DNA of 64,000 bases, taken from assembly GCA_977017645.1 (NCBI GenBank), contig OZ360226.1, forward strand, positions 55,552,001 through 55,616,000, in the 5' to 3' direction. The notes beneath the pieces are model-generated. The model was not told the DNA's origin and made no database searches. It worked only from the letters and a program-made list of their open reading frames with translations. This stretch comes from Torpedo marmorata (lineage: Eukaryota). The position numbers were made by a program, and so were the translations under genes. Of the stretch, positions 18,273-63,980 are shown one piece after another. The stretch's first letter is position 1. The number at the start of each line of letters is the position of its first letter.

Positions 18273-19291
18273 TTACATCAAAGACTGGCTGAATATTCTA
18301 TCCTTTTGTTCTTGAAGTATCCACTTACTCAATAGCTCTTGGAGTTGAACTTCAGCCAGCTACAATAAAGTTGGATGATCATTTTACTTCAAAAAAGGAT
18401 GTACCACCATTCTCCCTTCTCCACAATCATGGTTAAGATGCTAAAGTCATCAGATGAAAACCTAACTATCTGTGTAATATGACTGCTTCACTCCACTGGA
18501 TGGGAGCCCAGAGCTATGTGTGGATACACTGGGATCCCCTCTAAGGAAAGTTCATCTGAAAGTTTCTTCTGGGATAGCAAAGGTCCTGTGGAAAATTAAC
18601 AGCATAGATTAGTACTTTCAAGATAAGAATGATTAACATGTAATCACTCAGCAGTCATATCCAAAAAGTGAATGTTTAGTGCAGTTTGACTGCATGTGCT
18701 AGAATTCTCTCCTTGACTAGTTGTTGGTGCCTCGCCTGAACCATTTATCATGTTGTTTTTGCACATTCTAATATCCAGATCATATCTGCGGATTTGGCTC
18801 TGCAGGAGATATCAGCTGGGTATTGGATGAAGTCCCGACTGCAGTTCTCTGACTCTCCTGATACTCTATGATCTTTTCCTCTGCAAACATGGAAAATAAT
18901 ACAAATAAGAGTAATGACATGTGTTTAATAATTGGGGGTATTGAGAACAGTTAAAGAACTTTGAAGAAGCAGGATGTTGTATAAGTGGTGGCTGGAAAGA
19001 TGGAGTTCTGGGGAAATACATTAACAGAGAAGAATGAAAGAACTTGTTGGCTGAATAGTTACAAGGAATAAACTTAGAAGGGCAGGCGAGAGGATTGGAT
19101 CAATACACGGATCAGTATGCATGTGAAAGTGACGTTGTCCTCAACTTCACTGATCATGGGGGGGCGTGGCATGATGGCGTAGGTTGAAGACGTGAGAATA
19201 CACCTCTCCCCACAGATTTAGTTAAAAAGTGTATATAAATAACTTTATACAGTTCAAAAACAGATTAAAAGTCATTATAAAATATTTAGCA

Positions 19292-20683: not shown

Positions 20684-20961
20684 AGTTATGATTATAAATG
20701 TTGTGTAAAATCTGTTGGGGGGAGGTGGACTTTTTGTTTCTTCTTCCTAGCCATACACCACCTTAGTGGCGAGAGCCACTTCTCGAGCAATGGAGGGGGG
20801 TAATACTGGGGTAACTTTACCAGTATTTTATTCATTGGGGTTTTGTTTTTTCTTTTTTTCCTTACTTTTCTTTTTTCTCTTTAAGGAGATGTCAAATAGA
20901 TTACAACTTTGGAGGAAGGAGCTGGTGGATTTGATCAAAAGAGATTTAATAAAATTTAGTA

Positions 20962-23900
20962 ATGATGGATAGCAAGAAAATAAATGTAGTAAGTATTAAT
21001 ATAAATGGGCTTAACAATCCGATTAAAAGAAAAAGAACTTTAGCGTATATTAAAAAGTTGAATGTAGATATAGCTTTTTTACAAGAGACGCATTTGACGG
21101 AAGATTAATAGATTTTTATCTAAAATTACTCTACCTAAATTGAATGTTCAGAATAAATATTCTTTGGACTTACCTTTTACGATGAGAGAAGTTACTGAGG
21201 CAATATCGACGTTGAAAAGTGGTAAATCTCCGGGTGACGATGGGTTTCCAGTAGAATTTTATAAAGAATTTAAAGACTTATTGATACCTTTATATATGGA
21301 GGTATTGAATCAAGTTACTGAAACTCATTTATTACCGAAGACATTTTTAAACGCTATCATTACAGTTATACCAAAGAAAGATAGAGATGTGTTGAAAACT
21401 GAGTCTTATGGACCTATTTCATTGTTAAATGTAGATTATAAAATAATGGCAAAAATTTTAGCAAATAGATTAGCTAAATATTTACCAAACTTGATACATT
21501 CAGATCAAGCTGGATTTATTAAGAATAGATATTCGAAAGATAATATAGCTAGATTGATAAGTTTAATTAATGTATATAAGAAGAAACAAGATTTACCATT
21601 GGTGGTAACATTGGATGCAGAGAAGGCTTTTGATAGGTTAGAGTGGAATTTTTTATTTAAGGTTTTAGAAAAATTTGGTTTTGGAAATATTTTATAAATT
21701 GGATTAAAACTATATACAAAGAGCCTACAGCTAAAGTAGTTACAAATGGACAAGTATCGTCAAAATTTTTATTATCACGATCAACAAGACAGGGATGTCC
21801 CCTGTCACCTGCTCTATTTGTTTTGGCAATAGAACCTTTCGCTGAATTGATTAGAGAAGATAGAAATATAATGGGTATAAAAGTTGGTAGGGAAGAACAT
21901 AAGATTAGCTTGTTTGCAGATGATGTATTAATATATATGACAAAATCTGTTACATCACTTCAGCAATTGGCTACTATATTGACAGAATATGGTGAGATAT
22001 CTGGATATAAAATTAATTCAGATAAAAGTGAGATTCTGGCTTTATCTCAAGGTGATTATACTCGATGTAGAGAGGTTACGGAGTTTAAATGGGCTAAAGA
22101 AAGTATTAAATATTTGGGAGTTAAAGTGGATACAAAGTTGGAAAATTTGTATAAATTAAACTATATACCTTTATTCATGAAAATAAAAAAAGATTTAGAA
22201 CTTTGGAAAGATCTACCTATAACTTTGATGGGAAGAGTAAATTGTATCAAAATGAATGTTTTTCCAAGAATTCAATATCTTTTTCAATCGATTCCTTTTG
22301 GAATCCCAAATAAATTTTTTAAGGATTTAAAATTTGTTACTAGGAAATTTTTATGGAAAGGAAAGTTGGCAAGAGTAAGTATAGATAAATTAACATGGAA
22401 TTATGAGATGGGAGGATTGCAACTTCCTAATTTTCAGTATTACTATAAAGCAGCTCAACTAAAATTTATTAATGAATTTTTTGATTCAACTAAATCTTCT
22501 GCTTGGATTAATATAGAATTGAATAATATAGGAGAAATACATAAAGAAGAGATTATTTATAAGTGGAACTCTAAACTATTATTAGCTAAAAAGAAAAATT
22601 CACCAATTATTAAACATTTGTTGGAAATTTGGTCACAAGTAGATAAAGAAATAGGTCGGAAAAGATCAATTTCTTTAAATACACCAATATACCAAAATTT
22701 GCTTATACCATTCTCTATTGATAATCAGTTACTTAAATTATGGTTTCAAAAGGGAATTAACACCTTGAAAGATTGTTTTGAAGCTGGTAGATTTGTTACT
22801 TTTCAAAGGTTAAAAGAAAAATTTAATATACTAGACAATACAATGTTAGTTTATTTTCAAGTTAAAGCCTTTTTGACTGAGATATTAGGGAATGAATTAA
22901 TAGCACCAAGACAAAATGAATTGGAATTGTTAATTACTAAAGCTAATATTAATAAGTTTATATCACAAATGTATAAATTATTTCAGAGAAAGATGTCTAA
23001 AGTAGGGTTACATAAATCTAGATTAAAATGGGAACTAGACTTAAATGTTAATATAGATGAAAATCATTGGAGAGACTTATGTAAATTAAGTATGACTAAA
23101 GTCTTGAATGTTAGATATAGACTAGTACAATATAATTTCTTTCATCAATTATATTTAACACATAAAAAAATTAAAGAAATTTAATCCAGCATTATCAGAT
23201 ATGTGTTTTAGATGTAAGAGTGAAATAGGCTCTTTTGTTCACTGTACATGGTTATGTTCAAAAATTCAAGACTTTTGGTTGAAAGTTAAGAATTTTTTAG
23301 AGAGAATTTTTAATGTTGTGTTTACGATGGATCCTATGTTATTTTTATTTGGAGATATTAGAAAATTTAGTACTAGAAATAGATTAAATATGTATCAGGT
23401 AGAATTTTTACGTATAGTTTTAGCAGTTTCGAAAAAGTGTATAGCTATTACTTGGAAGTCAGATGTAGATTTAAATTTAGAAAGATGGCATGCAGAATTA
23501 CGTTCATGTATACCATTAGAAAAAATTACCTATAATTTGCGTAATAAATATAATTTTTTCTTGAAAATTTGGGGCCCATATATGAGAATTATGGGTTTAA
23601 CAATTTAAATTCTCTGGATATCGGATCCACTGGCGAAAATAACCTCTATGGTAGAATTAGTTTGTAGCTTGTTTTCTCCTCACTCTATTTTTCTATCTTT
23701 CTTTTTTCTTTTTCTCTTTTACTATATTTTTTTAATATATTTTTTTAGAGTATGCATTTTATTCTATGTATTTTGTGATTTAAACATTTAAATAAATTTT
23801 TTTTTTTAAAAAGAGACGCATTTGATAGATTTGGAACATCAGAAACTAAAAAGAGAATGGGTTGGTCAAGTGGTGGCTTCTTCATTTAATTCTAAAGCAA

Positions 23901-26900
23901 GAGGGGTAGCTATATTAATTAATAAAAAGTTACCTTTTAAAATACAATCGGTAGTTATAGATGTGGCAGGTAGATATGTTTTTGTACATTGTCAGATATA
24001 TTCAGAATTTTGGACACTTATGAATTTGTATGTACCAAATGCAGATGATGAACAGTTTATTCAAGATTATTTTTTACATTTGTCAGAAGCTAATGAGAAT
24101 ATTTTAATTGGTAGAGATTTCAATTGTTGTTTATATCCAATAATGGATAAAACTTCAAGATCACTTGCTAAAACTAAAATTGCTAAAAGAGTTCTCACTT
24201 TGATGAAAGATTTAAATTTAATAGATATTTGGAGGAAATTGAACCCGAGAGAAAAAGATTATTCTTTTTATTCTTTTAGACGTGATTCATATTCTAGGAT
24301 AGATTTATTTTTATTGTCTTCACAGGTTCAAGACAGAATAACGCAAGCATCTTATAAAGCGAGAATAATTTCTGATCATTCACCTTTATTAATATCTTGT
24401 ATAATTCCTGAAAAAGAAAAAACTGTATATAGCTGGAGATTTAATTCTTCTTTATTAAAAAGAAAAGATTTTTGTGATTACCGGTATATGAGAAGGGAAA
24501 TTCAGGAATTTTTACAAATAAATTCTAATTCTACTGATAATAAATTTATTATTTGGGAAGCTTTAAAAGCTTATTTAAGAGGTCAAATAATAAGATATTC
24601 AGCTAAAATTAAGAAGGATTATCTTCGGGAGGTAGATAATTTAGAGAAGGAGATTGAGTGTTTGGAAAAAGATTTACAAAAAAATAGATCAGTTCAAAAA
24701 AGGAATAATTTAGTTGGGAAAAAATTACATTATAATTTATTACAAACATATAAAATGGAAAAATTAATTCAAAGAACTAAACAAAGATATTATGAGTTAG
24801 GGGAAAGAGCACATAACGTTTTGGCATGGCAATTAAAAAAAGATCAAACTTCTAGAACTATAAATGCTATAAGGAAAAAGAATTCTCGGGAAATAACTTA
24901 TAAACCTCGAGAAATAAATGATCCTTTTAAAGATTATTATTTGAATTTATATAAATCTCAGATTGATCAAGATGATTCTAAAATTATTAGATTTTTATCT
25001 AAAATTACACTACCTAAATTAAATATTCAAAGTAGAGAATCTTTAGATTCACCTTTCTCAATGAGGGAAGTTAATGAAGTTCTTACTTCTTTAACGAGTG
25101 GTAAATCTCCAGGTGAAGATGGATTTCCATCAGAATTTTATAAAGAGTTTAAAGATTTATTGGTACCTCCGTATATGGATGTATTGAACCAAATTACAGA
25201 AACTCATTCATTACCGGATACATTTTTAAATGCAATAATTACAGTTATACCTAAAAAAGTTAGAGATGTATTGAAAACTGAATCATTTCGACCTATTTCA
25301 TTGTTAAATGTAGATTATAAGATAATGGCAAAAATTTTAGCAAATAGAATGGCTAATTATTTACCAGATTTAATTCATGTAGATCAAGCTGGTTTTATTA
25401 AAAATAGATATTGAAAAGATAACATTGCTAGATTAATTAGTTTAATTAATCTACAAAAAAAGAAGGAAGATTTACCATTAGTTTTAACGCTAGATGCTGA
25501 AAAGGCTTTTGATAGATTAGAGTGGAATTTTCTATTTTAGGTATTGGAGAAATTTGGTTTTGGAACTACATTTATCAATTGGATTAAAACTATATATAAA
25601 GAACCATCCGCTAAAGTAATTACAAATGGACAAATTTCTTCAAGATTTCCCCTGACTAGATCTACTAGACAAGGATGCCCTTTGTCACCAGCGTTATTTA
25701 TTTTGGCGATAGAACCTCTGGCAGAATTAGTTAGAAAAGATCCTAAAATAGTTGGTATTAAAGTTGGAACGGAAGAACATAAAATAAGTTTATTTGCAGA
25801 TGATGTATTGATATATATGACAAAATCTATTACATCTTTAGTACAATTGTCTGCGTTATTGAGAGAATATGGGGAAATATTTGGATATAAAATTAACTCT
25901 GATAAAAGTGAAATTATGGCATTATCACAAGGGGATTATAGTAAGTGTAAAGAAATTACACAATTTAAATGGGCAAAAGAAGGAATTAAATATTTGGGAA
26001 TAAGGATTGATACAAAATTGGCTAATTTATATAAATTAAATTATTTACCATTATTTTTGAAAATAAAAAAAGGTTTTAGAAAATTGGAAATATTTACCTA
26101 TAACTTTAATGGGAAGGGTAAATTGTATTAAAATGAATGTTTTTCCAAGAATTCAATATCTTTTTCAATCAATTCCTTATGAAATTCCTCAAAAATTTTT
26201 AAAGACTTAAATTCAATTATTAGAAAATTTTTATGGAAAGGAAAGTTAGCAAGAGTAGGTTTAGAAAAATTAACTTGGAATTATGAAATGGGTGGTTTAC
26301 AACTTCCTAATTTCCAAAATTATTATAAAGCAGCTCAATTAAAATTTGTTAATGAACTTTTTGATCCAACTAAATCTTCTGCTTGGATTAAAATAGAATT
26401 AAATAATATAGGAGAAGATTCCAAAGAAGTTATTTATAAATGGGATTCTAAATTAATATCAACAAGAAAGAAAAACTCTCCTATCATTAAACATTTGTTA
26501 GAATTATGGAATAAGACGTATAAGGAAATAGGAGGAAAAGGAATGATTTCTTCAAGGATGCCTTTATATCAAAATGAACTTATTTCATTTACTATTAATA
26601 ATCAATTATTTAAAATTTGGTTTCAAAAAGGAATTAAGAAAATAAATGATTGTTTTGAAGCTGGGAAATTTATTACTTTTCAAAGAATGAAAGATAAATT
26701 CAATATATTGGATAATACACTTTTTGCTTATTATCAAATTAGAGCATTTTTGATTGATAAATTAGGTTATAGTTTGATTAGAATTATTAGTTACTAAAGG
26801 AGATGTAAATAAATTTATTTCTCAAATGTATAAATTGTTTCAGAGGAAAACTCCTAAAGTAGGAATTCATAAATCAAGATTAAAATGGGAATTAGATTTG

Positions 26901-27464
26901 AATGTAATAATAGGTGAAAATCATTGGAAAGGATTATGTAAATTAAGTATGAAGAAGATTATTAATGTTAGATATAGATGAGTACAATATAATTTTTTTC
27001 ATCAATTATATTTAACACCTAAAAAATTAAAGAAATTTAATCCGAAATTATCAGGTTTATGTTTTAGATATAATAAAGAGGAAGGTTCTTTTGTACATTC
27101 TACATGGTTTTGTCCAAAAATTTATGATTTCTGGTTGAAAGTTAAAAATTTTTTAGATAAAGTATTTAAGATTACATTTCGAATGGATCCTATGATATTT
27201 TTGTTTGGAGATATTAGAAAATTTAGTATCAAGATGAAAATAAATATGTATCAAATAGAATTTCTGCGAATTGCTTTAGCCGTTTCAAAGAAATGTATTG
27301 CTATTACTTGGAAATCTGATGTAGATTTAGGGTTAGAAAGATGGCATGCAGAACTTCGTTCATGTATACCACTTGAAAAAATTACTTATAATTTACGCAA
27401 TAAATATAATTTCTTTTTAAAAATATGGAGCCCATATATGAAAGCTGTCGGTTTAAGGATCTGA
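20962..27464 (+). pseudogene. L1 ORF2 of the outer element, split by the nested L1
   Basis: APE starts at 20962 (NINGLNNP...FLQETHL), resumes at ~23822 and continues in ORFs 25544, 26288 and 27135. Confidence 0.9.
21098..23810 (+). mobile_element. 5'-truncated L1 nested in the outer L1 endonuclease region
   Basis: Perfect 15-bp TSD aagagacgcatttga at 21083-21097 and 23811-23825. RT ORFs 21140-21697, 21823-23184 and 23201-23608. Confidence 0.95.
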
Positions 27465-31531: not shown

Positions 31532-32165
31532 CCGGTCCCTAATTATTATAATGAGACGTAATGTCTCTAATAATAATTACATAATTATACAGTCAATCAT
31601 AAATAACAATTAACCACGTAACATTTGAACATGACGCAGGTCTTCTTTCTTCATTTGTAATAAGGCCAGAGGTTACCAGCACATAGCCTTGAAAAGATAT
31701 TTACTACCACTCTGCAGTCTGTGTAGTGGGCAAAGTACAAAACGCATAACAAATAAAGTCAGTTTGGACTTCTCAAAGTTCCTCCGTCTTCTGTAGAATC
31801 CATGAGTTAAAACATCGACCAGTAAACCTCAGATCTTCCTCAGACAGAATAGACACAGCTTTCCTTTTGAGTTTCACATGAGGTACATCTTCAGCATGTC
31901 GTTTGGCTTTCTTCCTTTCTTCAGCATTCTGCTTCTCATTGTAAGAATTTTAACTTTTAGAACCAGATTTTGAAGATTAATTTGATCCTCTCGATTTTAA
32001 TAAACGAGTCTCTTTAACTCTCCCTGCAACAGGTTTGCTCATCTTTTTCTTTCTTTTCTGCAGTTGATCATAGATAAGGTAAGATTCAAATGACATTAGT
32101 TCTTCAAACTCATCAACAGCCACAGCATTTGTAGAATCCTTCTGTAAAGAAGTAGACTGGTTCCA

Positions 32166-32689
32166 CTTATAGCTCCTACAAATCTCTTTAACTAGAACTG
32201 GAGCCTTTTCAACCTCTCTGGCTTCTATTGTCTTTTTCTGCAATTGCAGATCCAATTTTGCAACTTCCAATTCAGCCTCAGTTTCTGACTGTTTATTTTG
32301 AAGCCTTTTATTAGATTCTTTCTCTGCATTCAATTCTTTCGATAGGAAAGTAATTCTCTCGTTATCTTCTGAGAAGTTACTAACTTGATCTTGAATGAAA
32401 AGGTCATGTGATGTATTGGTACTTCTGCTTTCAGCCCTGCTGTAGTAATATCTCTTTCTTTGTGCATCGTTATTAGCTGGGCCTTCAAGATACATTCTTG
32501 ATTGTTTTCTGTAGTCAGCTGTCTTGTGTTATTAACCAATGGCTTGTTCTCTTTCAAAAGGTGAATCTTCTCATCCAACTGTATGCATCTTGATAAAACT
32601 GAATCTCTTTCCTCGATAACTGTATTAATTTCTTCAGCAGTTATTCTTTTCTTCCATTCTCTGGCTTTGCGAATTCTATCTACAATTAA
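32166..32689 (-). pseudogene. MIPOL1: Captured MIPOL1-like coiled-coil segments in BEL copy 1
   Basis: LIVDRIRKAREWKKRITAEEINTVIEERDSVLSRC..NNTRQLTTENNQECILKAQL and ITFLSKELNAEKESNKRLQNK..LQLQKKTIEAREVEKAPVLVKEI resemble two regions of vertebrate MIPOL1 as I recall it. Confidence 0.8.
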
Positions 32690-32864
32690 ATCTTTCTGGT
32701 TACTGTTTTCATGATTATCCAATATTTCCAAGTCCCCTTTCAACATTTTGTTCTCTGAAGGCAGTTGCACCAGTTTTGCAGTAATTTGTTTTAGTTCTGC
32801 CTCAGATTCAATTACACAGGAATAATCACCAACAGTATTTGCAGCATCTTCTAATACATCATTT

Positions 32865-35552
32865 TCATCTATTGTTGATAAAAAATAATTTCTTCTTTAC
32901 TGGTCTAGATGCTCTTGATTTATTTTCATCAGTAAGATTTTCTAAGAACTGTTTGTATACTTTTGAAGGTTTTTGATTGTTATCAAGGCGTTCAGGAAAG
33001 TCTGTATTAAACGGTTGTTTCAATGGTTCGTTGAGTTTCACAACAGATATCATATTGACACTTCTTGTTGACTGCTTCTGAGCAATATTATTCTTTCTTT
33101 CTAATAGTCCATTGATTGTCCATCCAAGCATAATTTTAATAGCGTAAAGTCCATCTCTCACACTCGGTATTACTTTTATTGGTTCCAGAGCCTTTGGTAC
33201 ATCAAAATCAATTAGCATCTCTATCTCAGAGCTATTTTCCGGTATATAAACCTTCCTCAGATACAACCACTGATTCACATCACTTTGATGTGGGATGTTT
33301 CCTTTATGCACAGGCATAGTCTTTTGTGTATATATGCTAGGAAGATCACAAAAATCGTCGCTGTGTATTCCAGCAACCTCTAACCCTGAAACGATGTTAG
33401 TTTCAATGACCTTTTCTTGTCCCATGGTTTTCAATAGAATCCTTGACTTTTTTCCTTCAAGATTAACCCTTTTCATAAGCCCCATAATGCAAAACGACAC
33501 AGTGCTTCCTGGGTCAAGAAATGCATGTGTACGTACCGTTGCATTTCCGTTCTTGGTCTTGACTTGTACAGGCACTATTGAGAGTTTGCAGTTATCCTTA
33601 CCAGCCCCAGTAAGACCACTTGTCTGAACCGAGGCAATAACACTGTTTTCTGCTGCTTCTTTTGTTTCTGTTTGCTCCTTTTCCAGTTCCTTGTTCCTTT
33701 GGTGAATATGCAGTATTCTAGGATGCTTCAAATTGCATATGTTACAGCTAAATCACTTCTTGCAGTTTTTACTGATGTGCCCTTTACAGCCAAAACATAC
33801 TCCATTTTCCTTTAAGAAAGCGATCTTCTCATTATGTTCCTTCTTTTCCAATTGTGAACACATTTCCAAAGCATGCTCATCTTTACAGAACAAACAGTTT
33901 TTTTCTCAGCAGGCAAACTCTACTTCTCTATCTGTAATTGATACAGCAGTAGCAAAGGTGCTTCCCTTTATTTTTTGATGAGGCTGTGACTTGGACTTCT
34001 TTACGTCTTCGATCACTGTTGGAGTGTCGATATTTCCAAATACTGGTACAGTTGCGATCCGCACGTGCCATTCAAGGAACCACAATATCCTCAAAGGTAG
34101 CATCCTTTCTATATTTTGTCTGAAGTTTACGAACTCTTGTTCTCCACAAATCCTTCAGCCTGTAAGGCAATTTGCTTGTGATGATTAACATATTGGAAGG
34201 TAAGTTAAGCTCACGCATGCGGTCGATATCTTCCATGGCATTACCACGTCCTCTTAAAAAGAGGGCGTATGCTTGTAAAGCCTTTATATCCTACGATTTT
34301 ATTGATGACCATGAAATAACCTTCTCTATATAAGCCATTGCAATTTTATGCTCATTGCCAAAATGATCTTGTAGTAATGCCTTTGCCTTAGTGAATCCCC
34401 TTTCTGGGTCCATATGCAGGCAACTCCTCACCAGTTCCTGTGGCTGTTGTCCAGTGTACTGTTCCAGGTAATAAAGGCGATCTATGGCATTTTTATTCTT
34501 ACTTTCGATATTATGTTCAAAAGATTTAATGAATGCTTGATACTGAAGTAGATCTCTGTTTAAAAACTTGAATCTCCTTCTTGGTTAAGGAATAGAGACC
34601 TTGTTGCTGCACTAATAAAGCAGTAATTTCATTTTGTTTTGCCATGATTGACAATATATTGTCTTGTTCACCATGGCTTAAAGCCGGTACTGCAGCTGAA
34701 AACATCACATGTCCTTCTTCACCCTGATTTTTATTACCTGACGGAAGTGAATAGAATTCTGGCTGGATAGATTGAAATCCGCTCATATCTCTGACCACTG
34801 GGGTCATTATTGGGGTTTGAGATTTGGCACCACCTTGCCTTAACCTGGCTTGTTCGGGTCCATACACGTCTCGTAACCGTAACACTGGCTCTTCTTTGGT
34901 ATTAAATATTTTCTTTTTCTGTTGTCCTTCCTCAAAACCTGACTCCAAAACGTGAGATGCTTTAGATAATTTACTTCAAGCACCAGATACCTCTGAGCCT
35001 TCTAGTACCCTCGACTTGGACTCCTTAACAGCTATTTTTGTTTCTCAGTTCCAGTTGCTCCTTTTGCCTCCTTAGCTGCTTCCTTAGCTGCTCCTCTTTC
35101 TTCCTTAGCTGCTCCGCTTCTCTTCGTAGCTGTTCTTCCTGCTCTTCCTCTAGTTCTTCTAAGGCATATTTATCGTTAAGCCATTCTTGTTCTGCTTCAA
35201 AAGTGGCCATTTCAGCCCGAACTTTTACACGTGTAGATTCAGTACTTGAAACACTGGAGCTTGCTCTAGAACTCCTCTTGCTTCTCCTGCTACCAATATT
35301 AGATGCACTATCACCTGGTCATATATCATCCTCTATTTCAGATGTCACATTAATATCTGACTCCTTTTCAAATTTGAGTCATACATCCTCTTCTCTTTCG
35401 TCCTCTTCACCGACATTTTGTGACACATCTTTAGCCATTTCCGTACCACTGACTCGAGAATCATCTGACGTCATCTGCAGTGCTTTCGCGGAGTCTTTAC
35501 TTTCATCAACCAAAGCTGCCTCTTCTTTTTTAATTGCCAGCTTCAGTCTATC
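32865..35552 (-). pseudogene. BEL Gag (DUF1759-like), zinc knuckles and aspartic protease, degenerate
   Basis: ORFs 35025-35210, 34526-34948, 33906-34103 and 32865-33731 (LSIVPVQV, AFLDPGS, LGWTING). Confidence 0.88.
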
Positions 35553-39280: not shown

Positions 39281-41805
39281 CAGTGCCCTCAATAATGTTT
39301 GGGACAAAGTCACTTTTTTCCTTTATTTGCCCCTGTGCTCCACAGTTTTAAATTTGTAATCAAACCATTCACATGTGATTAAAGTGCACATTCCAAATTT
39401 TATTCAAGGTTATTTGTATACATTTTGGTTTGACTATGTAGAAATTACAGCACTTTTTATACATAGTTCCCCCATTTCAGGGCACCATAATGTTTGGGAC
39501 ATTTGGCTTTACAGGTGTTTGTGAATACTCAGGTATGTTCAATTGCTTCATTTGTGCAGGTGCAGTATAAGAGAGCTAGGCTTGCTTCTAAGCTTTTGAT
39601 CACCTTTGGAGTCACAATGGCGGCGCTGCCGGAGCCGCTGTAGCGGCAGCGCTGCCGCTGGTGCAGACCCGCGGGGAGCGAGGGAGTGGAGATGCAGTGC
39701 TCCCGCGGGGTCCAGCTGCCCAGTCGACTGCTGTCAGCTCCGCACGGGCTTTAAACGGCCCGTTGAGGGAGCCGACGGTGGTTTTATTTATGATCCCGTG
39801 ACTGCGGGGTCTGCGCCCAAGATGGCCGCGCCTATTATCGGCAGCAGCCACAAGGGGTTGCAGACTCCGGGGAAGTGGAGGACTGGAGCAGGGCACCAGA
39901 GGATGGGAAAATCACCCCCCCCCCACCCCGCTCTGAGAAGGAGAAACGAAAGATATGACCCACAGGACGGTGACCACGACGGCGGACCAGTGAGGGGCTC
40001 TGAGGCTGAGGGACCAGTGCACGCGGCGGGCTGCTGGCGACTCGAAGCGAGTAACCCGCGGAAACTGTGGGCTGCTGGAGACTGCTGTCGGGAGACTTGC
40101 GCCGGGCTAGAGACTGGCTCGAAGTGGCTGGAGGAATACCAGGTATCGGAACCGGGATGCGAGGGGGTGCCGAGGGCGCCGAATGGTTCCTGACCGTGTC
40201 GGAGGTTCGGATCTGGAGCTCGTGTTGCTGATGGTTTTGACTGGAATCTGTGTGGCTGCGGAGGCTGCGGAAGTGCATCTACGGACACTCAGTGACTCTG
40301 GGGGGACTCCCTTTTGCTTTTCTTTCTCTGACTGTAAGTCTGACTGTAAGGAATGTTAGAGGCATTTAGGCAATTTTTTCTGGTGGCGAATCTGTCTGCC
40401 TTGCAGCAGGAAAAAAGAAATTTCATGTAATATGACACTGTCTTATTACTATGATAATAAATTGAATCTTGAATCTTGTAGTTGCCATGTTTCAACATGA
40501 GGACCAGAGTTGAGCCAATAAAAGTCAAAGAAGCCATTTTGAGGCTGAAAAACAAGAATAAAACAGTAAGAGATATTGCCCAAACTTTAGGATTAGCAAA
40601 ATCAACTGTTTGGAACATCATTAAGAAGAAAGAGCGTACTGGTGAGCTCAGTAATCACAAAGAGAATGGTAAGCAAGGAAGACTTCCACTGCTGATGACA
40701 GAAGAATTCTCATCATAATGAAGAAAAATCCCCAAATGCCCGTCTGACAGATCAGAAACACTCTTCAAGAGGCAGATGTCGATGTGTCAATGACTACTCT
40801 TCGCAGAAGACTTCATGAACAGAAATACAGAGGCTACACTGCAAGATGCAACCACTGGTGAGCCATAAAAACAGGATGGCCAGATTACAGTTTGCCAAGA
40901 AGCATTTTAAAGAGCCTATAGAATTCTGGAAAAAATGTCTTGTGGACAGATGAGACAACGATTAACCTGTATCTGAGTGATGGCAAGAGCCAAGTGTGGA
41001 GGCGTAAAGGAACTGCTCAAGATCCAAAGCATCCCACCTCATCTGTGAAACATGGTGGTGGGGGTGTTATAGCCTCGGCATGTATGGCTGCCACAGGTAC
41101 TGGCTCACTTATCCTCATTGATTTAACTGCTGATGGCAGTAGCAAAATGAATTCTGAGGTGTATAGAAACATCTTATCTGCTCAAGTTCGAGCAAATACT
41201 TCCAAATGCATTGGACGGTACTTCATCCCACAGCAAGTCAATGATATCAAACATATTTCTAAAGCCACAAAGGAGTTTTTCAAAGCTAAAAACTCGAAAA
41301 TGCTTGAATGGCCAAGTCATTCAATTGAAAATTCAATTGAGCATGCATTCCATATGCTGAAGAGAAAACTTAAGGGGACAAGCCCCCGAAACAAGCAGTA
41401 GCTGAAGATGGCTGCAGTAGAGGCCTGGTAGAGCATCATCAGAGAAGATACTCAGCACCTGGTTATGTCAATGAATCATAGACTCAAGCAGTCATTGCAT
41501 GCAATGGATATGCAACAAAGTATTAAACATGACTACTTTAAGTTGCATACCATTGCTATTACAGATTTTCGTGTTTTACTTATATTATGGTTGAAGTATG
41601 GTTACCTGAAATGAGGGTACCATGTACCAAAAGTACTGTATTTTCTGCATGGTCAAACCAAAATGTACACATATACCCTTTAATGAAATGTGGAATGTGC
41701 ATTTTAATCACATGTGAATTGTTTGATTATAAATTTAAAACCGTGGAGGACAGGTGCAAATAAATGAAAAAAGTGTCTTTGTCCCAAATATTAAAAAGGA
41801 CACTG
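39281..41805 (+). mobile_element. Tc1/mariner transposon (long IR/DR-type TIRs), transposase decayed
   Basis: TA|CAGTG...CACTG|TA ends and ~200-bp TIRs. HTH RDIAQTLGLAKSTVWNII (40482-40718). WTDET, VKHGGG and EWPSHS motifs (40940-41401). Confidence 0.93.
39617..40477 (+). mobile_element. GC-rich non-coding retroposon with a Rex1-like 3' tail (copy 1), inserted in Tc1
   Basis: Colinear with 53821-54673 and 58027-58660. Ends with aataaa(ttgaatc)n. Confidence 0.85.
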
Positions 41806-42878: not shown

Positions 42879-43107
42879 AAAAAACACAAATGCTGGAGAA
42901 ACTCAGCAGGTCAAACAGTGTATTTTATGTAGCAAAGGTAGAAATACATAACCGACGTTTCGGGCTTGAGCCTTTCATCAAAGCCCGAAACGTCGGTTAT
43001 GTATTTCTACCTTTGCTACATAAAAGACACTGTTTGACCTGTTGAGTTTCTCCAGCATTTGTGTTTTTTACTTCAACCACGGTGTCTACAGATTTTCGTG
43101 TTTTACT
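42879..43107. mobile_element. Palindromic Penelope 3'-end insertion
   Basis: 88-bp arms (42880-42967 and 42981-43068) with 2 mismatches. TSD tcgct(c/t)atataat at 42865-42877 and 43108-43120. Matches the 3' end of the 50372 Penelope. Confidence 0.88.
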
Positions 43108-47400: not shown

Positions 47401-48589
47401 CTGTGGCTGTACAACACAATATCTTGCAATTCCTCTTTGTATTAATTGTTGCATTAATGACAATACTTACATTTAAAAAGAAGCCTCCAAGTAGGATGTT
47501 ATGTTATTTCAAAAATGCTGCATGAAATTATTGGAAAAACAGAAATCATCACACATTTTGGATTCAAACTGTACAAACAATCTTTTTAAAAGGAGATAGT
47601 TTTTTTTGTCCCAGCCACACACAATAAGATTTCAAATGCAGGATAAATGAGCTGTCATAAGACATAGATTTCTGCATATTGTTAGATATTGAGGTGTGTT
47701 TTTAACATCCATTGTTATCCCCTTTTTATCTCATACTTTTACACTTCATTCCACATTAATTGTATCCTCAGAGTCCTGATAATATTTTCCTGCATTTTTA
47801 CTTCTGTTCAGTGGTCTGTAACTTTGATATTTATACTTCTGCACTGAGCTGCACCATTTTCATTAATATGTTTTCTTATTTAGTAGTTTATAAAGCAACA
47901 ATTCAGCCCCTCCTGATTGCCCACTTTTCAGTTAAACTAAGGTTGACTTGCATCTAAACTTTACGGATCATGATCCTATAACCTTTAATGAGCTCACATA
48001 ATTGTTTACTCAGAGCTATCATTAGGCTGATAAGAAGAAATGATTGGATTGTCATTTCTGTTTCTCTGGAAGCTGTTGTTTCTGATTCCTTAATACCATA
48101 AGTTGGAAGGCAGTGGGGAAGAGATCAAAGGGCAGCTGAGTGAATTGAGCTGCCATCGAAGTTTGGTGAGTTTGATTAAGGCATGATTGGAAAATCACTG
48201 AGCCAATCACAGGAATTTAAAGGAAATTGGAGGACATCCTGGGACAGCTTAGACTAATTTCCAATATGTTGCTTCAAAACAATTGTTAGATTGAAAACAA
48301 TGTTTTCTGATGCACGTCTGACTTTTAAAAAAAAAATGCATGTGTACAACGCTCACTGGGAAATGTCCAGTCAAGTGATGGAAACAAACCAAACCATCAT
48401 ATTTCATTTCCTAGATTAGTGCATTTTCAATTGTACAGAATTGAAATAAATAGTGCCACAATGTTTATTTTCTAGGTTTATTTATTTTCTTAATTACCAA
48501 TTTCCTTGGCTATATGTGTTGGAATGTTGTTAAATTATACTTAAAATGAGTATTTCATAATCTTGACTTATAACTAACTGCACGGCTAG

Positions 48590-50363
48590 CAGGGCTGGCA
48601 CTACCATTAGGTCAACTAGGCAGCCGCCTAGGGCGCAGACCTCAGAGGGGCGCTGGCTAGGAAGGGGGAGCTGCTGACCCACCTGCAGAACCTCATCAAG
48701 GCCGAGCCCAGGAGCCGGCTGACCACCCCGTGCGCCAGCTCGCCATGACCGCCTATACCTTCCTGCTCAGGCTGGGGCCCCCACTCAACAAGTCCTACGT
48801 CACCGAGCTCATCAAGATTGCCCGGACAGCATGGTGGGTCTGCAGGCCGGGGCGAGCGGGCTGGAGGCAGCGGAGGAGAAGGCCGGGGACGCCGCATATC
48901 AGGAGACCCACTCCACTCTCCAGGGCCTGCTAAGCGAGATCCTCCTCCGAGAGCCGAGCCCTGACGAGCTCCAGGCCATCTTCAAGCACATCGAGGGCTG
49001 GGTTGTCTCCCCCAAGGAGCAGGAGTGGGCTATATAAGTCATCCGCAGGCTGCTGGCACTCTACCTGGAGAAGGCGAGCGGCCGGTGTCAGGCGGAGTTC
49101 GGACACGAGGGCCCCATGGTGGGCCGACTGGCTCCGTGCCTCGCCAACCCGGCGCCGGCTAGCATCAGCGCCCTCTTCCACATCCAGCTGCGCTGCCGGG
49201 GCGTGTCCGAGGGCCGGCCCGATGAGCTGGTGGAGCACCTGAAAGCCGCCGGCACCTGGCTCCGCCGCCCCACTCCTCCTGCAGCTCTGCTCCGAGCTGG
49301 CGAAAGCTGCGTGCAGGCACATCCCTCGCCAGCAGATCGGCCCTCTCCTCTTCACTCTCTTCGAGGGGCTGGACGACCACTACCCCGGCTGCTCCAGAGC
49401 TGCGTCCACCATCATAAACCCCGTCGTCCCGTCCTGCGGCTCCGCTCTCCGGGGCCAGGTCTTAGACATTCTCAAGGCACTGCCCGTGTACCTGCAGTGG
49501 ACGGCGGGAGAGCAGGTCAGACTCTCCATCATCCACTTCATCTCCGTGCAGGCTACACACAACACAGCCGAGGCGGTCTCCTGCCTCCTCTTCTCACCGC
49601 TGCCCTTTGACGCCAACACCCGCCACATCTGGCACTCGCTGGCTGGCGACACTGGCATGGCCACGGCCGTCATCCACCTGCTGCTCAACACCTTGGACGA
49701 GCGCTTGTGCCTGGAGCCGGAGGCCGGAGCCCCGCCACGCCGCGGTGCTGGCGTCTGCCTGGCCCTGGAGCCCCTGAGCGTTATCTGCGCCCTGAAGGAG
49801 ATGCTGTCGAACCGGGAGTGTACCGCGGCCGTCAGCAGCCTTTACCTACGGCTCTTCTGCGCTCTGCTGCTGAAGCTCGGCGCCAGCGCCAGGGCACACC
49901 CCGAGGCGTGCACGGTGTCGCCCGACGCCCGATGCTGCTTGGCAGAGGTGCTGCGGACGCTCCTGGGCACCGGCAGTGGTGGCGTCCCGCTTGCACGAAG
50001 CGGGGGGCTGGTCCGCCCTGATGGACCCCGAGCGCCACCATGAGGGGGTGGCCGCTCTGGCCGTGGCCTCACATGCCGGAGCCCACCTGACCATGATCAT
50101 CCACCTCGTTTCCTGCCTCCTGCCCCGCTTGGCTGCCGACTCCGAGCAGCCGATGCTGGCTGCCTTTCTGGCCGTGCCCCCGGGCCACCCTGTCGCCTCC
50201 GACCTCCACCTGACCGACGCACTAGTCGAGAGCCTCCTATACGGCGCACGTTGAACATCACATCAGGTATTGCACCAACCGCTCAGCCCGGTCAGCACCG
50301 CCCCCCCCCCACACCCCGTGCTCAGCCCGGCCTAGGGCGCAAAATAGTCTGGCACTGGCCCTG
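48590..50363. mobile_element. Non-autonomous hAT-type DNA transposon carrying MROH1-like cargo
   Basis: Perfect 8-bp TSD acggctag (48582-48589 and 50364-50371). Termini CAGGGC...GCCCTG. Subterminal gcctagggcgc near both ends. No transposase. Confidence 0.88.
48655..50254 (+). pseudogene. MROH1: Intronless, frameshifted MROH1 (maestro HEAT-like repeat)-like fragment
   Basis: RKGELLTHLQNLIKAEP, PVRQLAMTAYTFL, LQAIFKHIEGWVVSPKEQE, AVSCLLFSPLPFDANTRHIWHSLA, PLSVICALKEML..LYLRLFCALLL and GGWSALM..HHEGVAALA occur in the order I recall for MROH1. Confidence 0.82.
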
Positions 50364-50371
50364 ACGGCTAG

Positions 50372-51453
50372 GTCTTCCAATGCAGATCATCTGAAATGTC
50401 CGCCTTCTTCCACAAACATGACTTCCCCTCCATCACCATCAATTCAGCACACACCCACATCTCCTCAATTTCCCGCTCATCAGCCCTGGCCCCCTCTGCC
50501 CCCAGACGCAACAAACACAGGATTCCGCTTGTCCTTACCTACCACCCCACCAGCCTCCGCATCCAACACATTATCCTTCATAATTTCCAGCACTTACAAC
50601 ATAATTCCACTACCAGACACATCTTCCCCTCTATGCCTTCTGTAGGGACCGCTCCCGCTGTGACTCCCTCATGCACTCATCCCTCCCATTCAGTCGTCGT
50701 CCCCCCAGGTGGCCGCAGGAAGTGCAACACTTGCGCCCACACCTCTTCCCTCACCACAGTTCGGGGCCCCAAACAGGCCTTTCAAGTGAAGCAACACTTC
50801 ACTTGTATCCACGGGAGTGATTTACTGCATCCAATGCACCCTTTGTGGCCTTCTCTATATTGGAGAGACTGGGCGCAGACTGGGAGATCGCTTCGCTGAT
50901 TACCTTCGCTCTGTCCGCACCAGTGACAGGGATCTCCCAGTGGCCAACCATTTCAATTCTGCGTCCCACTCCAATACTCACATGTCTGTCCATGGCCTCA
51001 TGTACTATCTCACCAAGACCACCTGTAAATTGGACAAACAACACTTGATTTTCTGTCTGGGCACTCTCCAGTGGAGGGCATTAACATCGACTTCTCCAGT
51101 TTCTGCTCACCTACTCTCCATTCTCCTTCCCTTTACCTTGTCTTCTTTCCCTCAGCTCTTCACCCCCTTCCCTCTCTATTCACCGAGCCATCCCCCCCTG
51201 CTTGCTGCTGTGCCTTGCTCCCTTCTTCACCTATTACCTCCTGCCTTTGGGACCGCGCTCCTTCCCCCACCATTCCCCACCTTACCTTTTTGTTTGAACG
51301 CCTGCCAACATTTTCCCATACATTGATGAAGGGTTCAAGCCCGAAACGTTGGTTATGTATCTTTATTTTTGCTATATAAAGTACACTGTTTGACCTGCTG
51401 AGTTTCTCCAGCATTGTGTTTTTACTTTAACCACAGTGTCTGCAGATTTTGTG
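50372..51453 (+). mobile_element. Penelope-like element, 5'-truncated (RT C-terminus + GIY-YIG endonuclease + 3' end)
   Basis: RIPLVLTYHP, IYCIQCTLCGLLYIGETGRRLGDRF and PVANHFN. Hammerhead-like tgatgaagggttcaagcccgaaacg at ~51324. Confidence 0.92.
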
Positions 51454-53820: not shown

Positions 53821-54673
53821 AAGATTCAAGATCAAGATTCAATTTATTGTCATAGTAATAAAACAGTGTTATATTCCATGAATTTTTTTTTGCCTGCTGC
53901 AAGGCAGATAGATTCGCCACCGGCAGAAATTGCCTAAGCGTCACTTACATTCCTTACAGTCAGAGAAAGAGAAGCAAAAGAGAGTCCCCCCAGAGTCACC
54001 GTGTGTCCGTAGATTCGCCTCCAGCGCTTCCGCAGCCTCCACAGCCACATAGAGTCCAGTCCAAACCATGGGCAACCCGAGCTCCAGATCCAAACCTCCA
54101 ACACGGTCAGGACACCCTCGGCACCCCCTCGCATCCCGGTTCCGATACCTGGTACTCCTCCAACCAGTTCGAGCCAGCCTCCAGCAGTCCGCAGCCTGGC
54201 GTGAGTCCCCCAACAGCAGTCTCCAGCAGCCCACAGCCTCCGCGGGTTCCTCGCGTAGAGTTGCCAGAAGTCCGCCGCATGCACTGGTCCTTCAGCTTCA
54301 GAGCCTCTCACTGGTCCTCCGCCGTGCTCACCGTCCCGTGGGTCGTCTCCTCCGCTTCTCCTTCTCAGACGGGGGGGGGGGGGTGATCTTCCCGTCCTCT
54401 GGTGCCCTGCTCCAGTCCTCCGCTTCCCCGGAGTCTGCAGCCCCTCATGGCTGCTGCCGGTTAAAAGGCGCTGCCATCTTGGGCACAGACCTCGTGGTCG
54501 CGGGATCTTAAATAAAACCACCATCGGCTCCCTCAACGGGCCGTTCAAAGCCTGTGCGGAACCGATGGCAGTCGACTGGGCAGCTGGACCCCACGGGAGC
54601 GCTGCATCTCCGCTCCCCGCGGGTCCGCACCAGCGGCAGCGCTGCCGCTATAGCGGCTCCGGCAGCGCCGCCA
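53821..54673 (-). mobile_element. GC-rich non-coding retroposon (copy 2, full length)
   Basis: Reverse complement of 39617-40477 with the same 5' start (tggcggcgctgccggagccgct) and the same tail. Confidence 0.87.
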
Positions 54674-54869
54674 GTGGTTGACCTGTGTTGATTCTTCACC
54701 ATTGTTAATTGCAGCTCCAGCCCAAACACATACAGATGCACCCAGTTAAGAGGAAAGAAAAGTGGAGAGTTTAGCAAGAGCAATGGATCAGTTAGCATTT
54801 CAAAGATCTCTTCCACTGAGACTCCATTTGATGTGAGTTTGTTTGATTACATTACACAACTTCGGTGTT

Positions 54870-58026: not shown

Positions 58027-58660
58027 ACCGCGGGGTCTGCGCCCAAGATGGCAGCGCCTATTAATCGGCAGCAGCCACGAGGGGCTGCAGACTCCAGGGA
58101 AGCGGAGGACTGGAGCAGGGCACCAGAGGACGGAAAGATCACCCCCCCCTGTCTGAGAAGGAGAAGCGGAGGAGACGGCCCACGGGACGGTGACCATGGC
58201 GTCAGACCAGTGAGGGGCTCTGAGGCTGAAGGACCAGTGCATGCGGAGGGCTGCTGGCGACTCGAGGCGAGGAACCCGCGGAGGCTGTGGGCTGCTGTAG
58301 ACTGCTGTCAGGAGACTCGCGCTGGGCTGTGGAATACTGGAGACATCAAACTGGCTGGAGGAGTACCAGGTATTGGAACCGGGATGCAAGGGGGTGCCGA
58401 GGGCACCGAAGGGTTCCTGACCGTGTTGGAGGTTCGGATCTGGAGCTCGGGTTTCCGATCGTTTGGACTGGACTCTGTGTGGCTGCGGAGGCTGCAGAAG
58501 CGCTGGAGGCAAATCTACGGACACTCGGTGACTCTGGGGGGACTCTCTCTTGCTTCTCTTTCTCTGACTGTAAGGAATTTAAGAGGCGCTTAGTCAATTT
58601 CTGCCGGTGGCGAATCTGTCTGCCTTGCAGCAGGCAAAAAATATTTCATGGAATATAACA
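58027..58660 (+). mobile_element. GC-rich non-coding retroposon (copy 3, truncated)
   Basis: Aligns to ~39801-40435. Confidence 0.83.
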
Positions 58661-59830: not shown

Positions 59831-60233
59831 CAGGTGCTCCTCAACTTACGATGGGGTTGCAATCCGGCAAACCCATCATAAGTCGAAAAAATCATGTCGA
59901 AAAAGAATACCGCACCTACCATTTTTTATAATTACATTTTCAATACCTTTGAGATAGTCGATTGCGAAAGTCCTAACTCATGTGCTATAGCCATTACTGG
60001 CTTGCCGCCTTCACGCTGAGCAGGTATCTTGAGTTTTGTCTCCAGAGTAATTGCTTTCCTCTTTTTCTTCTCACCAGAAGCAGGAGACACACATGGGCGT
60101 TTAGTACACATGATGGGTTGTTTACAGTGCACTCATTCGCGTGACCGCTACAGAGACTGTGAGCGTGGTTGAGTCAGCATCGTGAGAGAGTATGCTGTAT
60201 GATACTCTCACGCGATGCTGCCATCGCCCATAT
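59831..60233 (-). mobile_element. Tigger/pogo-like DNA transposon derivative, interrupted by BEL copy 2
   Basis: TA|CAGGTGCTCCTCAACTTACG TIR. CENP-B-type N-terminal HTH KRKAITLETKLKI..IAHELGLSQSTIS (59932-60132). Confidence 0.8.
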
Positions 60234-61280: not shown

Positions 61281-63980
61281 TCAACCATTAAACCTCAAAT
61301 CTTCCTCAGACAAAATAGATACAGTTTTTCTTTTGAATTTAACACAAGGCACTTCTTCAGCATGTCGTTTCACTTTATTCCTTTCTTCAGTATTCCACTT
61401 CTCATGTGAAGAATTTAAACTCTTAGAATTAGAATTTGAATATTTATCTGATCCTTTCGATTTTAAACAGGTCTGTTTAACCACTCTGGTTTCTATGGCT
61501 CTTTCCTGCAATTCTAAATCCAATTTTGCAACTTTCAATTCAGTCTCAGTTCTTTCCGAGAAATTAATAATTTGATCTGAAGTCAAAATATCATGTGATA
61601 CATTGATATTTCCATTGTCAATCCTGTTGCGACAAACTTGAAATTTTTTAATTTCTTCATCTTGTTTGTTACATTTCTGCAATGCAATATCACATTCTTT
61701 CTGCATTGTTAATTGTTGAACATTCAATTTACATTCTTGATTGGTTTTTAAAGTCAACTGTTTTGTGTTATTAACCAATAACTTGTTCTCTTTTAAAACA
61801 TTAATCTCTTCCTCCAACCTTTTACATTTTGATAATGCTGAATCTCTTTCCTCAATAACTGTATTCATTTCTTCAGCAGTTATTCTTTTCTTCCGCTTTC
61901 TGACTTTGCGAGTTTTACTTACAATTAAATCTTTCTGTTTATTGTTTTCTTGATTATCTAATATTTCCAATTCCCCTTTCAACATTTTGTTCTCTGAATT
62001 CAATTGCATTAAATTATCATTCACATTATTCTTTATTCCATCAGCACAATTTTCTGTGTTCTCCAGTTTTACATCACATTGCAATATTTTTTCATTAGCT
62101 TAGTCTATTGTATTCTCTGAACTACAAAATCTATATTCAGATTTGTTTTCAGTCACTTGTTTTATTCCTGTATCTGATTCAATTACACATGAATGATCAA
62201 TAGTATTATTTGCAACATCTTCTAATACTTCACTTTCATCCATTTCTGATGAAATTAATTCCTTCAATGTTGTTTTAAATACCCTTGATTTATTTTCACA
62301 TTGATCAGTTTTCTTTTCTTCAAAAGTGATTTTCTTATTCACAGTATTTTGCTCTTCGCTTAACTCTTCAACTTTCACAACCGAAATTCTATTAATACTT
62401 ATCGCTAACTGTTCCTGAGCAATATCATTATTTCTTTCCATTGGTCCATTGATTGTCCAACCAAGCATGGTTTTAACAGCATAAGGTCCATTCCTTTTAC
62501 TCTCTATTACTTCTTTTGGTACCAAAACCTTTGGCACATCTGAACCAATCAGCATTTTTATTTCAGAATTAATTTCAGGTAAATAAACCTTCCACAGATA
62601 AGCTAAATGATGGATATCCCTTTGATGAGGAATATTTCCTTCATTCACAGGCATAGTCTTCTGAGTATATACACTTGGAAGATCACAAAATTTTTTGTCA
62701 TCCAATCCAGCAACCTCTAAGCCTGAAACAATGTTAGTTTCAACAACCTTTTCTTGTCCCATGGTTTTTAACATAATTCTTGATCTTTTTCCTTGAATAT
62801 TAAGTTTATTCATTAGTCCTTCCGTGCAAAAAGATGCAGTGCTGCCTGGGTCTAGAAATGCATATGTTTTTACTATTGCATCCCCTTTCTTGGTCTTGAC
62901 TTGTACAGGCACTATCGAAAGTTTGCAGTTATTCACACCGGCCCCGGTAAGACCACTTGTCTGAACCGAGGTTATAACATTATTTTCTGTTGTTTCCTTT
63001 GTTTCTGTTTGCTCTTTTTCCAATTCCTTGTTTCTGTTATGGATATGCAAAATTCTAGGATGTTTCAAATTGCATATGTTACAATTAATTTACTTCTCGC
63101 AGTTTTTACTGATGTGCCCTTTACACAGACAGCTAAAACATATTCCATTTTCCTTTAAGAAAGCGATCTTTTCCGTATGTTCCTTCTTTTCCAATCGTAA
63201 ACACATTTCCAAAGTATGTCCACATTTAAAGAACAAACAACTCTTTTCATTAGGCAAACTTTCCTTTTCCATATTTACTTTGTCCTTTTCTTTACTTATA
63301 ACTTGCACATTAGTAGCAAAAGTACTCCTTTTCACTTTCGGACTAGACTGTGTGTTAGACTTCCTTACATCTTTGCCCATTGAATTATCTCTGGTATTTC
63401 CATATAGTGGATCTGTTTCAACGTACACCCGTCGTTCAAGAAAATTTACCAAATCCTTTAAGGTAATTTTTCGACCGTAATCTACTTGTAAATCACAAGC
63501 CAAATCTCTCCATCTATCCCATAACTTGTAAGGTAATTTTTCTAAGATGATTCGCATATTACTATGCACTTCAAGCTCACGAATATTATCGATTTCTTCC
63601 ATAGCATTACAACATCCTCTTAAAAACAAAGTATATTCTTGCAGAGCCTTTACATCATTTTGATTTATTGATGTCCATTTAAGAGCTTTATCCATATAAG
63701 CTAAAGCAATTCGATGCTTGTTGCCAAAATATTGTTCCAGTAAAGCCTTAGCTTTGTCTAATCCTCTTTCTGAAGACATTTGTTTACAACTCTTTACCAG
63801 TTCTTTTGGATGTCCCTTTGTGAACATTTCCAAATAATAAAGACATTCATCACGATCTTGGCATTTATCTTCAATATTGCGTTTGAAAGATCTCATAAAT
63901 GATTGATATTGAAGTGGATCACCATCAAAAGTTTGTATCTCTTTCTTGGGTAAAGAAGAGAGAGACTGTAACTGAAACAA
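61281..63980 (-). pseudogene. Gag-protease-MIPOL1-like fusion frame with two internal stops
   Basis: ORFs 63090-63980, 62100-63068 and 61281-62084 are in the same frame, separated only by TAA at 63090-63092 and 62100-62102. Confidence 0.88.
61473..61928 (-). pseudogene. MIPOL1: Captured MIPOL1-like segments in BEL copy 2
   Basis: KKRITAEEMNTVIEERDSALSKCKRLEEEI compares with recalled MIPOL1 KMRITAEEMSALIEERDAALSKCKRLEQEL. A second segment reads KLDLELQERAIETRV. Confidence 0.83.

What the first reader, a model, noticed from the sequence alone, without database searches (positions are those of the whole stretch)
48582..50371. hAT-type DNA transposon packed with an intronless MROH1-like coding sequence
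Seen: a sharply bounded GC-rich island with a perfect 8-bp TSD, CAGGGC..GCCCTG termini and subterminal gcctagggcgc motifs, where about 90% of the length is frameshifted HEAT-repeat coding sequence without introns. Established: 8-bp TSDs and CAGGGC ends are typical of hAT elements, and vertebrate MROH1 has many short exons. Inference: a Pack-TIR-like element whose cargo came from cDNA or a retrogene, which is unusual because Pack elements normally capture genomic DNA. The GC contrast hints at a GC-rich source locus or horizontal origin.
Basis: partly seen in the sequence, partly recalled or inferred. Interest (0 to 1): 0.8.

Follow-up and report, generated by a model that had tools for sequence, protein, structure and literature searches.

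The report
Transposon carrying a host gene fragment
A small, decayed cut-and-paste transposon holds a 1.6-kb piece of a ray MROH1 gene; the piece has no introns most likely because the source gene in sharks and rays has none either, so this looks like an ordinary case of a transposon picking up host DNA.

Summary
A 1,774-bp element (48590-50363) has a perfect 8-bp target-site duplication, decayed 14-bp inverted ends starting CAGGGC and a repeated subterminal motif. Its inner 1,590 bp (89.6%) is collinear, intron-free MROH1 coding sequence (Pristis residues 805-1360 of 1629; 291 of 528 identical; 4 frameshifts, 1 stop).

The cargo nests among ray sequences (100/99) in a paralogue clade found only in cartilaginous fish. 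Grouping it with bony vertebrates is rejected. That clade is biased towards GC-coded residues and lies on short contigs or chromosomes, which explains the GC contrast without horizontal transfer. The donor looks single-exon: the complete 1,650-aa catshark orthologue sits on a 5,608-bp contig, and 0 of 14 named cartilaginous-fish MROH1 records carry an isoform tag, against 33 of 39 in bony vertebrates. The cargo is an internal fragment without poly(A) or its own duplication, so it is not an L1 retrocopy.

Best reading: a non-autonomous hAT captured genomic DNA of an intronless host gene, making a dead Pack-TIR. Copy number, the empty element and the donor's exon structure could not be checked directly.

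The parts
48582..48589 (.). Left copy of the 8-bp target-site duplication
48590..48603 (+). Left terminal inverted repeat, about 14 bp, CpG-decayed
   Evidence: 9 of 14 identical to the reverse complement of the right end; 4 of 5 mismatches at CpG positions
48604..48652 (+). Rest of the left arm, with gcctagggcgc (48626-48636) and a second GGGCGC (48648-48653) overlapping the cargo junction
48650..50239 (+). Captured internal fragment of an MROH1 paralogue of cartilaginous fish (Pristis residues 805-1360 of 1629); intron-free; pseudogenised by frameshifts near 48727, 48816, 49261 and 49979 and a stop at 49035; GC3 0.86
50240..50349 (+). Right arm or filler without clear MROH1 homology; 11-bp direct repeat (50281, 50320) around a C-run; gcctagggcgc at 50330-50340; no poly(A)
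50350..50363 (-). Right terminal inverted repeat
50364..50371 (.). Right copy of the 8-bp target-site duplication
50372..51100 (+). Neighbour, not part of the element: GIY-YIG-coding, Penelope-like retroelement fragment abutting the right TSD (end approximate)
   Evidence: GIY-YIG clusters, score 0.93-0.94; the label Penelope is recalled

Best explanation
A dead Pack-hAT. Step 1 (inferred): long ago an MROH1 paralogue became intronless in cartilaginous fish, probably by retroposition, and became GC-rich on a small chromosome. Step 2 (inferred): a break inside a short non-autonomous hAT element (arms about 60 and at most 124 bp) was repaired by DNA synthesis that switched to the genomic copy of this gene in a ray, copied 1.6 kb from the middle of its reading frame and returned to the element's other arm. 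Step 3 (shown by the TSD and ends): the element reached this site by cut-and-paste transposition, with a transposase supplied in trans (inferred). The order of steps 2 and 3 is open. I put about 0.55 on filling of an element already resident here (the common route in Tan et al. 2021) and 0.45 on capture followed by a jump. Step 4 (shown): the cargo then decayed without selection. It encodes no working protein, and both inverted ends have lost their CpGs.
For: Perfect 8-bp TSD at inverted ends, beyond chance at these boundaries. Intron-free, collinear cargo, internal to the gene. No other MROH1 sequence in the window at E up to 0.01. Cargo inside the ray subclade (100/99) of a clade (100/100) that holds only cartilaginous-fish sequences; grouping with bony vertebrates rejected (p-AU 2e-65) and with the shark orthologues rejected (p-AU 0.0004). 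Donor likely single-exon: complete 1,650-aa orthologue (4,953-nt CDS) on a 5,608-bp contig, while a bamboo-shark record with the same style of locus tag lies on a 603,867-bp contig; isoform tags on 0 of 14 versus 33 of 39 names (hand count). Donor clade is biased to GC-coded residues: GARP/FYMINK 1.2-4.5 against 0.8-1.05 in teleosts, cargo 2.46; contigs 0.006-53 Mb; shorter shark chromosomes are more GC-rich (PMC10620051). No poly(A), no A-run of 5 or more, no junction repeat of 7 bp or more. Decay: 29 of 169 clade-invariant columns changed (17%) against 0.6-7.5% leave-one-out in the 9 intact genes, matching roughly 5-7% neutral change in simulation. hAT carries 208 of 370 animal Pack-TIRs (PMC8277862).
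Against: The donor's exon structure was not seen directly. The 5,608-bp contig could be a transcript-like record, and isoform tags depend on annotation depth and are not independent across species. The host's own gene was not found: nothing closer than 52-55%. No second copy of either arm is in the window, so neither the empty element nor the transposase family was identified. The host species is unknown; that it is a ray rests on the cargo tree and on recalled resemblance of the surrounding repeats. The cargo has a long branch (0.6) and an unusual residue make-up, which can bias its placement.
Confidence: 0.8

Rival explanations
1. The donor is multi-exonic in the host and the hAT gap was filled from spliced RNA or cDNA, directly or through a young processed pseudogene.
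For: The cargo crosses positions where teleost isoform models show recurrent block deletions (near residues 818, 884-887 and 913, in more than one species group), so introns exist there in bony fish. The donor structure was not seen directly.
Against: Catshark orthologue complete on a 5,608-bp contig; 0 of 14 isoform tags. The cargo belongs to that clade, not to the bony-fish gene.
Confidence: 0.08
2. An L1-made retrocopy landed in a resident MITE, as with retrogenes nested in bat Helitrons, and was later trimmed.
For: L1-like elements are abundant in the window (the label is recalled). Such nesting is documented for Helitrons (PMC4224331) and suspected for ARF6 in MER20 (PMC8277862).
Against: The cargo lacks the last ~270 codons and the 3' end that this route always copies first (established knowledge). 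No poly(A) and no flanking repeat of 7 bp or more.
Confidence: 0.04
3. Horizontal origin: the element brought the gene fragment from another species.
For: GC 0.67 against 0.34 in the left flank. The host was not identified independently, and no protein closer than 55% was found.
Against: The donor clade is GC-biased in all rays sampled. The cargo sits between the skate and the sawfish plus stingrays, the place recalled for an unsampled ray order, with weak support (91/77 and 94/92). Bony-vertebrate origin rejected.
Confidence: 0.04
4. No transposon: an MROH1 fragment inserted by break repair, with ends and duplication arising by chance, or an assembly chimera.
For: The bare TSD-plus-6-bp pattern occurs 13 times in the window. 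The arms have no second copy in the window.
Against: 0 of 2000 local shuffles, CpG-type TIR mismatches and the subterminal motif on both arms. Excess change at conserved columns fits real decay better than assembly error.
Confidence: 0.04

Closest known systems
Animal Pack-TIRs, hAT class (Tan et al. 2021, PMC8277862)
   Same: Non-TE host sequence of 100-5,000 bp between the two ends of one short TIR element with TSDs; hAT is the commonest carrier (208 of 370).
   Different: Long, wholly coding cargo (1.6 kb). Older than their cases, which needed 90% identity to a parent. They discarded intronless cargo from multi-exon parents; here the parent appears single-exon, so that filter would not apply. 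A text search of their paper found no mention of sharks.
Non-autonomous hAT elements/MITEs, possibly Tip group
   Same: 8-bp TSD, short TIR within the 10-25 bp range (PMC3942097), CAGGG start as in the Tip100 TIR (PMC12511174), subterminal repeats. Vertebrate Tip100-type MITEs with similar ends and same-strand subterminal motifs are recalled, not tested.
   Different: No transposase, so assignment to the Ac, Buster or Tip group cannot be made; about 90% of the length is host gene.
Retrogenes nested in or captured by bat Helitrons (Thomas et al. 2014, PMC4224331)
   Same: Intronless host coding sequence inside a DNA transposon.
   Different: Those are rolling-circle elements, and the nested retrogenes have poly(A) and their own TSDs and are multicopy. 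This cargo has neither mark, and its copy number is unknown.
MROH1 (HEATR7A), HEAT-repeat lysosome fission factor (PMC13587356)
   Same: Cargo is homologous to the middle of the protein (Pfam PF21047, PF23210).
   Different: A broken internal third, from a fast-evolving paralogue found only in cartilaginous fish; no functional product expected.

Membership tests
hAT superfamily (non-autonomous) | 8-bp target-site duplication | tested here: met
hAT superfamily (non-autonomous) | Short terminal inverted repeats (10-25 bp) | tested here: met
   About 14 bp, 9 of 14 identical, first 6 perfect, 4 mismatches of CpG-decay type
hAT superfamily (non-autonomous) | Subterminal repeated motifs | tested here: met
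   11-mer on both arms, 0 of 100 shuffles reach the count
hAT superfamily (non-autonomous) | Ends match an autonomous hAT or a dispersed family | not testable with these tools
   No eukaryotic DNA collection available; no second copy in the window
hAT Tip group | Transposase phylogeny | not testable with these tools
   No transposase in the element; only the CAGGG start resembles Tip100
Pack-TIR | Internal non-TE host sequence of 100-5,000 bp between both ends of one TIR element | tested here: met
   1,590 bp of MROH1
Pack-TIR | Parental locus in the same genome, 90% or more identical and not itself TE-flanked | not testable with these tools
   Host genome not available; the tree points to a ray donor; the parent is not in the window
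Pack-TIR | Not an intronless copy of a multi-exon parent | tested here: inconclusive
   Indirect evidence favours a single-exon parent; exon structure not seen
Multicopy (mobilised) Pack-TIR | Several cargo-bearing copies with different TSDs | not testable with these tools
   One copy in 64 kb; no similar-length protein homologue among 3,115 candidates
L1-made processed pseudogene | 3' end of the mRNA with poly(A) | tested here: not met
   Ends at residue 1360 of 1629; no A-run of 5 or more, no poly(A) signal
L1-made processed pseudogene | Own flanking TSD | tested here: not met
   No repeat of 7 bp or more across the two junction zones
MROH1, paralogue clade of cartilaginous fish | Placement in the clade by phylogeny | tested here: met
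   100/100 clade, 100/99 ray subclade; alternatives rejected

The most novel reading that the evidence does not exclude
The donor is spliced in the host, and the hAT element filled an internal gap from MROH1 mRNA or cDNA (an internal fragment with no poly(A), so not the L1 route), then spread as a multicopy family. That would be RNA-templated gene capture by a cut-and-paste transposon in a vertebrate, the class of case that the main animal Pack-TIR survey filtered out.
Probability: 0.06. Interest if true: 0.72.

Novelty: new member of a known kind. Interest (0 to 1): 0.3.

Why it matters
Modestly. It extends Pack-TIR gene-fragment capture to cartilaginous fish, with an unusually long, all-coding cargo, but the fragment is dead and the mechanism is known. 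It is a useful warning that intronless cargo does not imply RNA capture until the exon structure of the true donor paralogue is known. The side result may deserve more attention than the element: sharks and rays have several MROH1 paralogues, at least one and perhaps all apparently single-exon. None of my searches listed a paper on this.

Tried and rejected
PDB sequence search: 0 matches. Similar-length protein search for other cargo copies: 0 of 3,115 candidates. HMMER search over 1.84 billion representatives: 99 hits, none above 52% identity; the unnamed hits were not used because some may be human. Accession and cluster look-up could not be made, so the gene records behind the 5,608-bp contig were not seen. 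The 2018 shark genome paper is not held, so the genomic nature of that contig is inferred. Paper search for the terminal motif gave 8 irrelevant papers. Pfam scan of 150 of 189 open frames in non-repeated parts of the window showed no host exon above a curated cut-off, only transposase-type domains and weak hits below cut-off; the 39 frames not scanned are 30 at 13-19 kb and 9 at 60-61 kb. Dating arms against cargo by CpG loss was inconclusive: both TIRs lost their CpGs, but the TSDs and subterminal motifs kept theirs. Junction microhomology cannot be judged without the donor DNA and the empty element. The bare TSD-plus-TIR pattern was rejected as evidence on its own (13 cases in the window). 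Supplements of PMC8277862 (species and case lists) were not opened; they could show whether a cartilaginous fish was among the 100 genomes.

Full report
Observation. The element runs from 48590 to 50363 (1,774 bp) between two identical 8-mers at 48582-48589 and 50364-50371. The ends are inverted over about 14 bp with 9 identities. Four of the five mismatches are reciprocal TpG/CpA changes at two CpG positions, as expected for a once better-matched TIR decaying by deamination (the ancestral state is inferred). An 11-bp motif lies on both arms in the same orientation (48626, 50330): 3 matches at up to one mismatch against 0.13 expected, 0 of 100 shuffles. An 8-bp repeat around a 6-bp inverted repeat is common by itself (13 in the window; 1-12 in each of 30 shuffles). 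None of those 30 shuffles gave one with CAGG ends, and 0 of 2000 local shuffles of the boundary zones gave one. The left GC boundary is sharp. The right one is blurred by a GIY-YIG-coding fragment of 0.52-0.57 GC.

Cargo. Pfam finds Maestro HEAT models in three frames, and all 5 hits of the first protein search (8,000 candidates scored) are MROH1-family proteins of cartilaginous fish at 52-55% identity. A frameshift-aware alignment maps 48650-50239 to Pristis residues 805-1360 of 1629: 291 of 528 identical, 4 frameshifts, 1 stop, no insertion above 4 codons. So 89.6% of the element is intron-free coding sequence. No other part of MROH1 is in the window. Teleost isoform models show recurrent block deletions inside this span, indirect evidence that the bony-fish gene is spliced there.

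Source. A tree of the cargo with 27 named homologues, chosen from the 108 hits (all 16 from cartilaginous fish, 10 bony vertebrates, 1 anemone), puts the cargo among ray sequences (100/99) within a nine-member clade found only in cartilaginous fish (100/100). Forcing it with bony vertebrates (p-AU 2e-65) or with the shark orthologues (p-AU 0.0004) is rejected. The cargo has a long branch and an unusual composition, so its exact place among rays is uncertain. The clade is biased to GC-coded residues (GARP/FYMINK 1.2-4.5 against 0.8-1.05 in teleosts; cargo 2.46) and lies on contigs of at most 53 Mb. Shorter shark chromosomes are more GC-rich (PMC10620051, passages). The GC contrast (cargo 0.67, GC3 0.86; left flank 0.34) therefore needs no horizontal transfer. 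That the host is a ray is inferred from this tree and from recalled resemblance of the surrounding repeats; it was not tested independently.

Why no introns. The catshark member of the donor clade is a complete 1,650-residue protein whose longest contig is 5,608 bp, leaving at most 655 bp outside the 4,953-bp CDS. A bamboo-shark record with the same style of locus tag lies on a 603,867-bp contig, which suggests these lengths are genomic (inference). By hand count, among NCBI names beginning 'maestro heat-like', 0 of 14 from cartilaginous fish carry an isoform tag against 33 of 39 from bony vertebrates; hypothetical, unnamed, UniRef-only, one misnamed and the anemone row were left out. Both lines are indirect, and the record look-up could not be made. 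I put about 0.85 on a single-exon donor. If so, copying genomic DNA gives intronless cargo and no RNA step is needed at capture.

Against a retrocopy. The cargo is an internal fragment that lacks the last ~270 codons. The element has no A-run of 5 or more, no poly(A) signal, and no repeat of 7 bp or more across the cargo junctions. Retrogenes nested in bat Helitrons have poly(A) and their own TSDs (PMC4224331, passages).

State. The cargo differs at 29 of 169 columns invariant in the nine intact clade members (17%), against 0.6-7.5% when each intact gene is left out in turn. Simulation puts the excess at roughly 5-7% neutral nucleotide change, with about 2 stops expected and 1 seen (a rough model). 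It is a pseudogene fragment. No protein closer than 52-55% was found.

Mechanism. Shown: transposition-type insertion (TSD and ends), cargo from the ray clade, no introns, no L1 marks, decay. Inferred: single-exon donor; capture by template switching during repair of a break inside a short non-autonomous hAT; transposase in trans. In Tan et al. (PMC8277862; abstract, passages and three sections on distribution, gap filling and methods), hAT carries 208 of 370 animal Pack-TIRs, only four are multicopy, most arise by filling a resident element, and intronless copies of multi-exon parents were discarded. The donor is not in this window, which fits either order of events. I give 0.55 to filling in place and 0.45 to movement after capture. 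Neither arm recurs in the window.

Family. The 8-bp TSD and TIR length fit hAT (PMC3942097, passages). The CAGGG start resembles the Tip100 TIR (PMC12511174, passages), but the group cannot be assigned without a transposase. MROH1 is described as a lysosome fission factor (PMC13587356, passages); the fragment is not expected to work. The 2018 shark genome paper was not seen.

Novelty. A new member of a known kind (Pack-TIR). Searches listed no paper on this element or on MROH1 gene structure in sharks and rays; ('maestro heat' with 'elasmobranch') returned 0 papers. For the others only the top 12-20 listings were seen, and the library lacks most subscription journals. Interest 0.3. The most novel reading left open, capture from spliced RNA followed by spread, has probability about 0.06 and would deserve about 0.7.

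Noticed in passing
named proteins P0001-P0012, P0016, P0082, P0087, P0095: Sharks and rays have at least five MROH1 paralogue lineages (three in Stegostoma, two of them listed with the same 16.8-Mb contig length). Rooted on the anemone, all group together with moderate support (88/81), and none has an isoform tag. This may be an ancient retrogene that expanded or replaced the spliced gene.
   Followed up: partly
P0008, P0009: Extreme bias to GC-coded residues in the Mobula and Hemitrygon members of the donor clade (GARP/FYMINK 4.3-4.7 over the whole protein).
   Followed up: no
window 50372-51100: A GIY-YIG-coding, Penelope-like fragment starts at or near the right TSD and has no counterpart on the left. 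Either the hAT landed at its truncated end or it inserted afterwards.
   Followed up: partly
window 50240-50330: About 90 bp between the end of MROH1 homology and the right subterminal motif, with an 11-bp direct repeat (50281, 50320) around a C-run; element interior or a second filler, origin unknown.
   Followed up: partly
window 2079-13000 and 19226-27464: Several AT-rich (25-30% GC) L1-like elements with long open ORF1/ORF2 stretches, some interrupted by other RT-coding insertions (labels recalled).
   Followed up: no
window 40482-41398 and 59935-60132: Tc1-like transposase remnants (HTH and DDE_3 hits).
   Followed up: no
window 31977-33752 and 61281-63089, - strand: Two related LTR-retrotransposon-like remnants with gag/protease-like frames (BEL-like by recall).
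   Followed up: no
window 39615-40478, 53827-54676, 58027-58660: Three related copies (84-88% identity) of a GC-rich repeat of about 640-880 bp that was not identified.
   Followed up: no
window 42880-43096 and 51323-51450: Short repeat of about 100-120 bp with an internal inverted structure, possibly another MITE.
   Followed up: no
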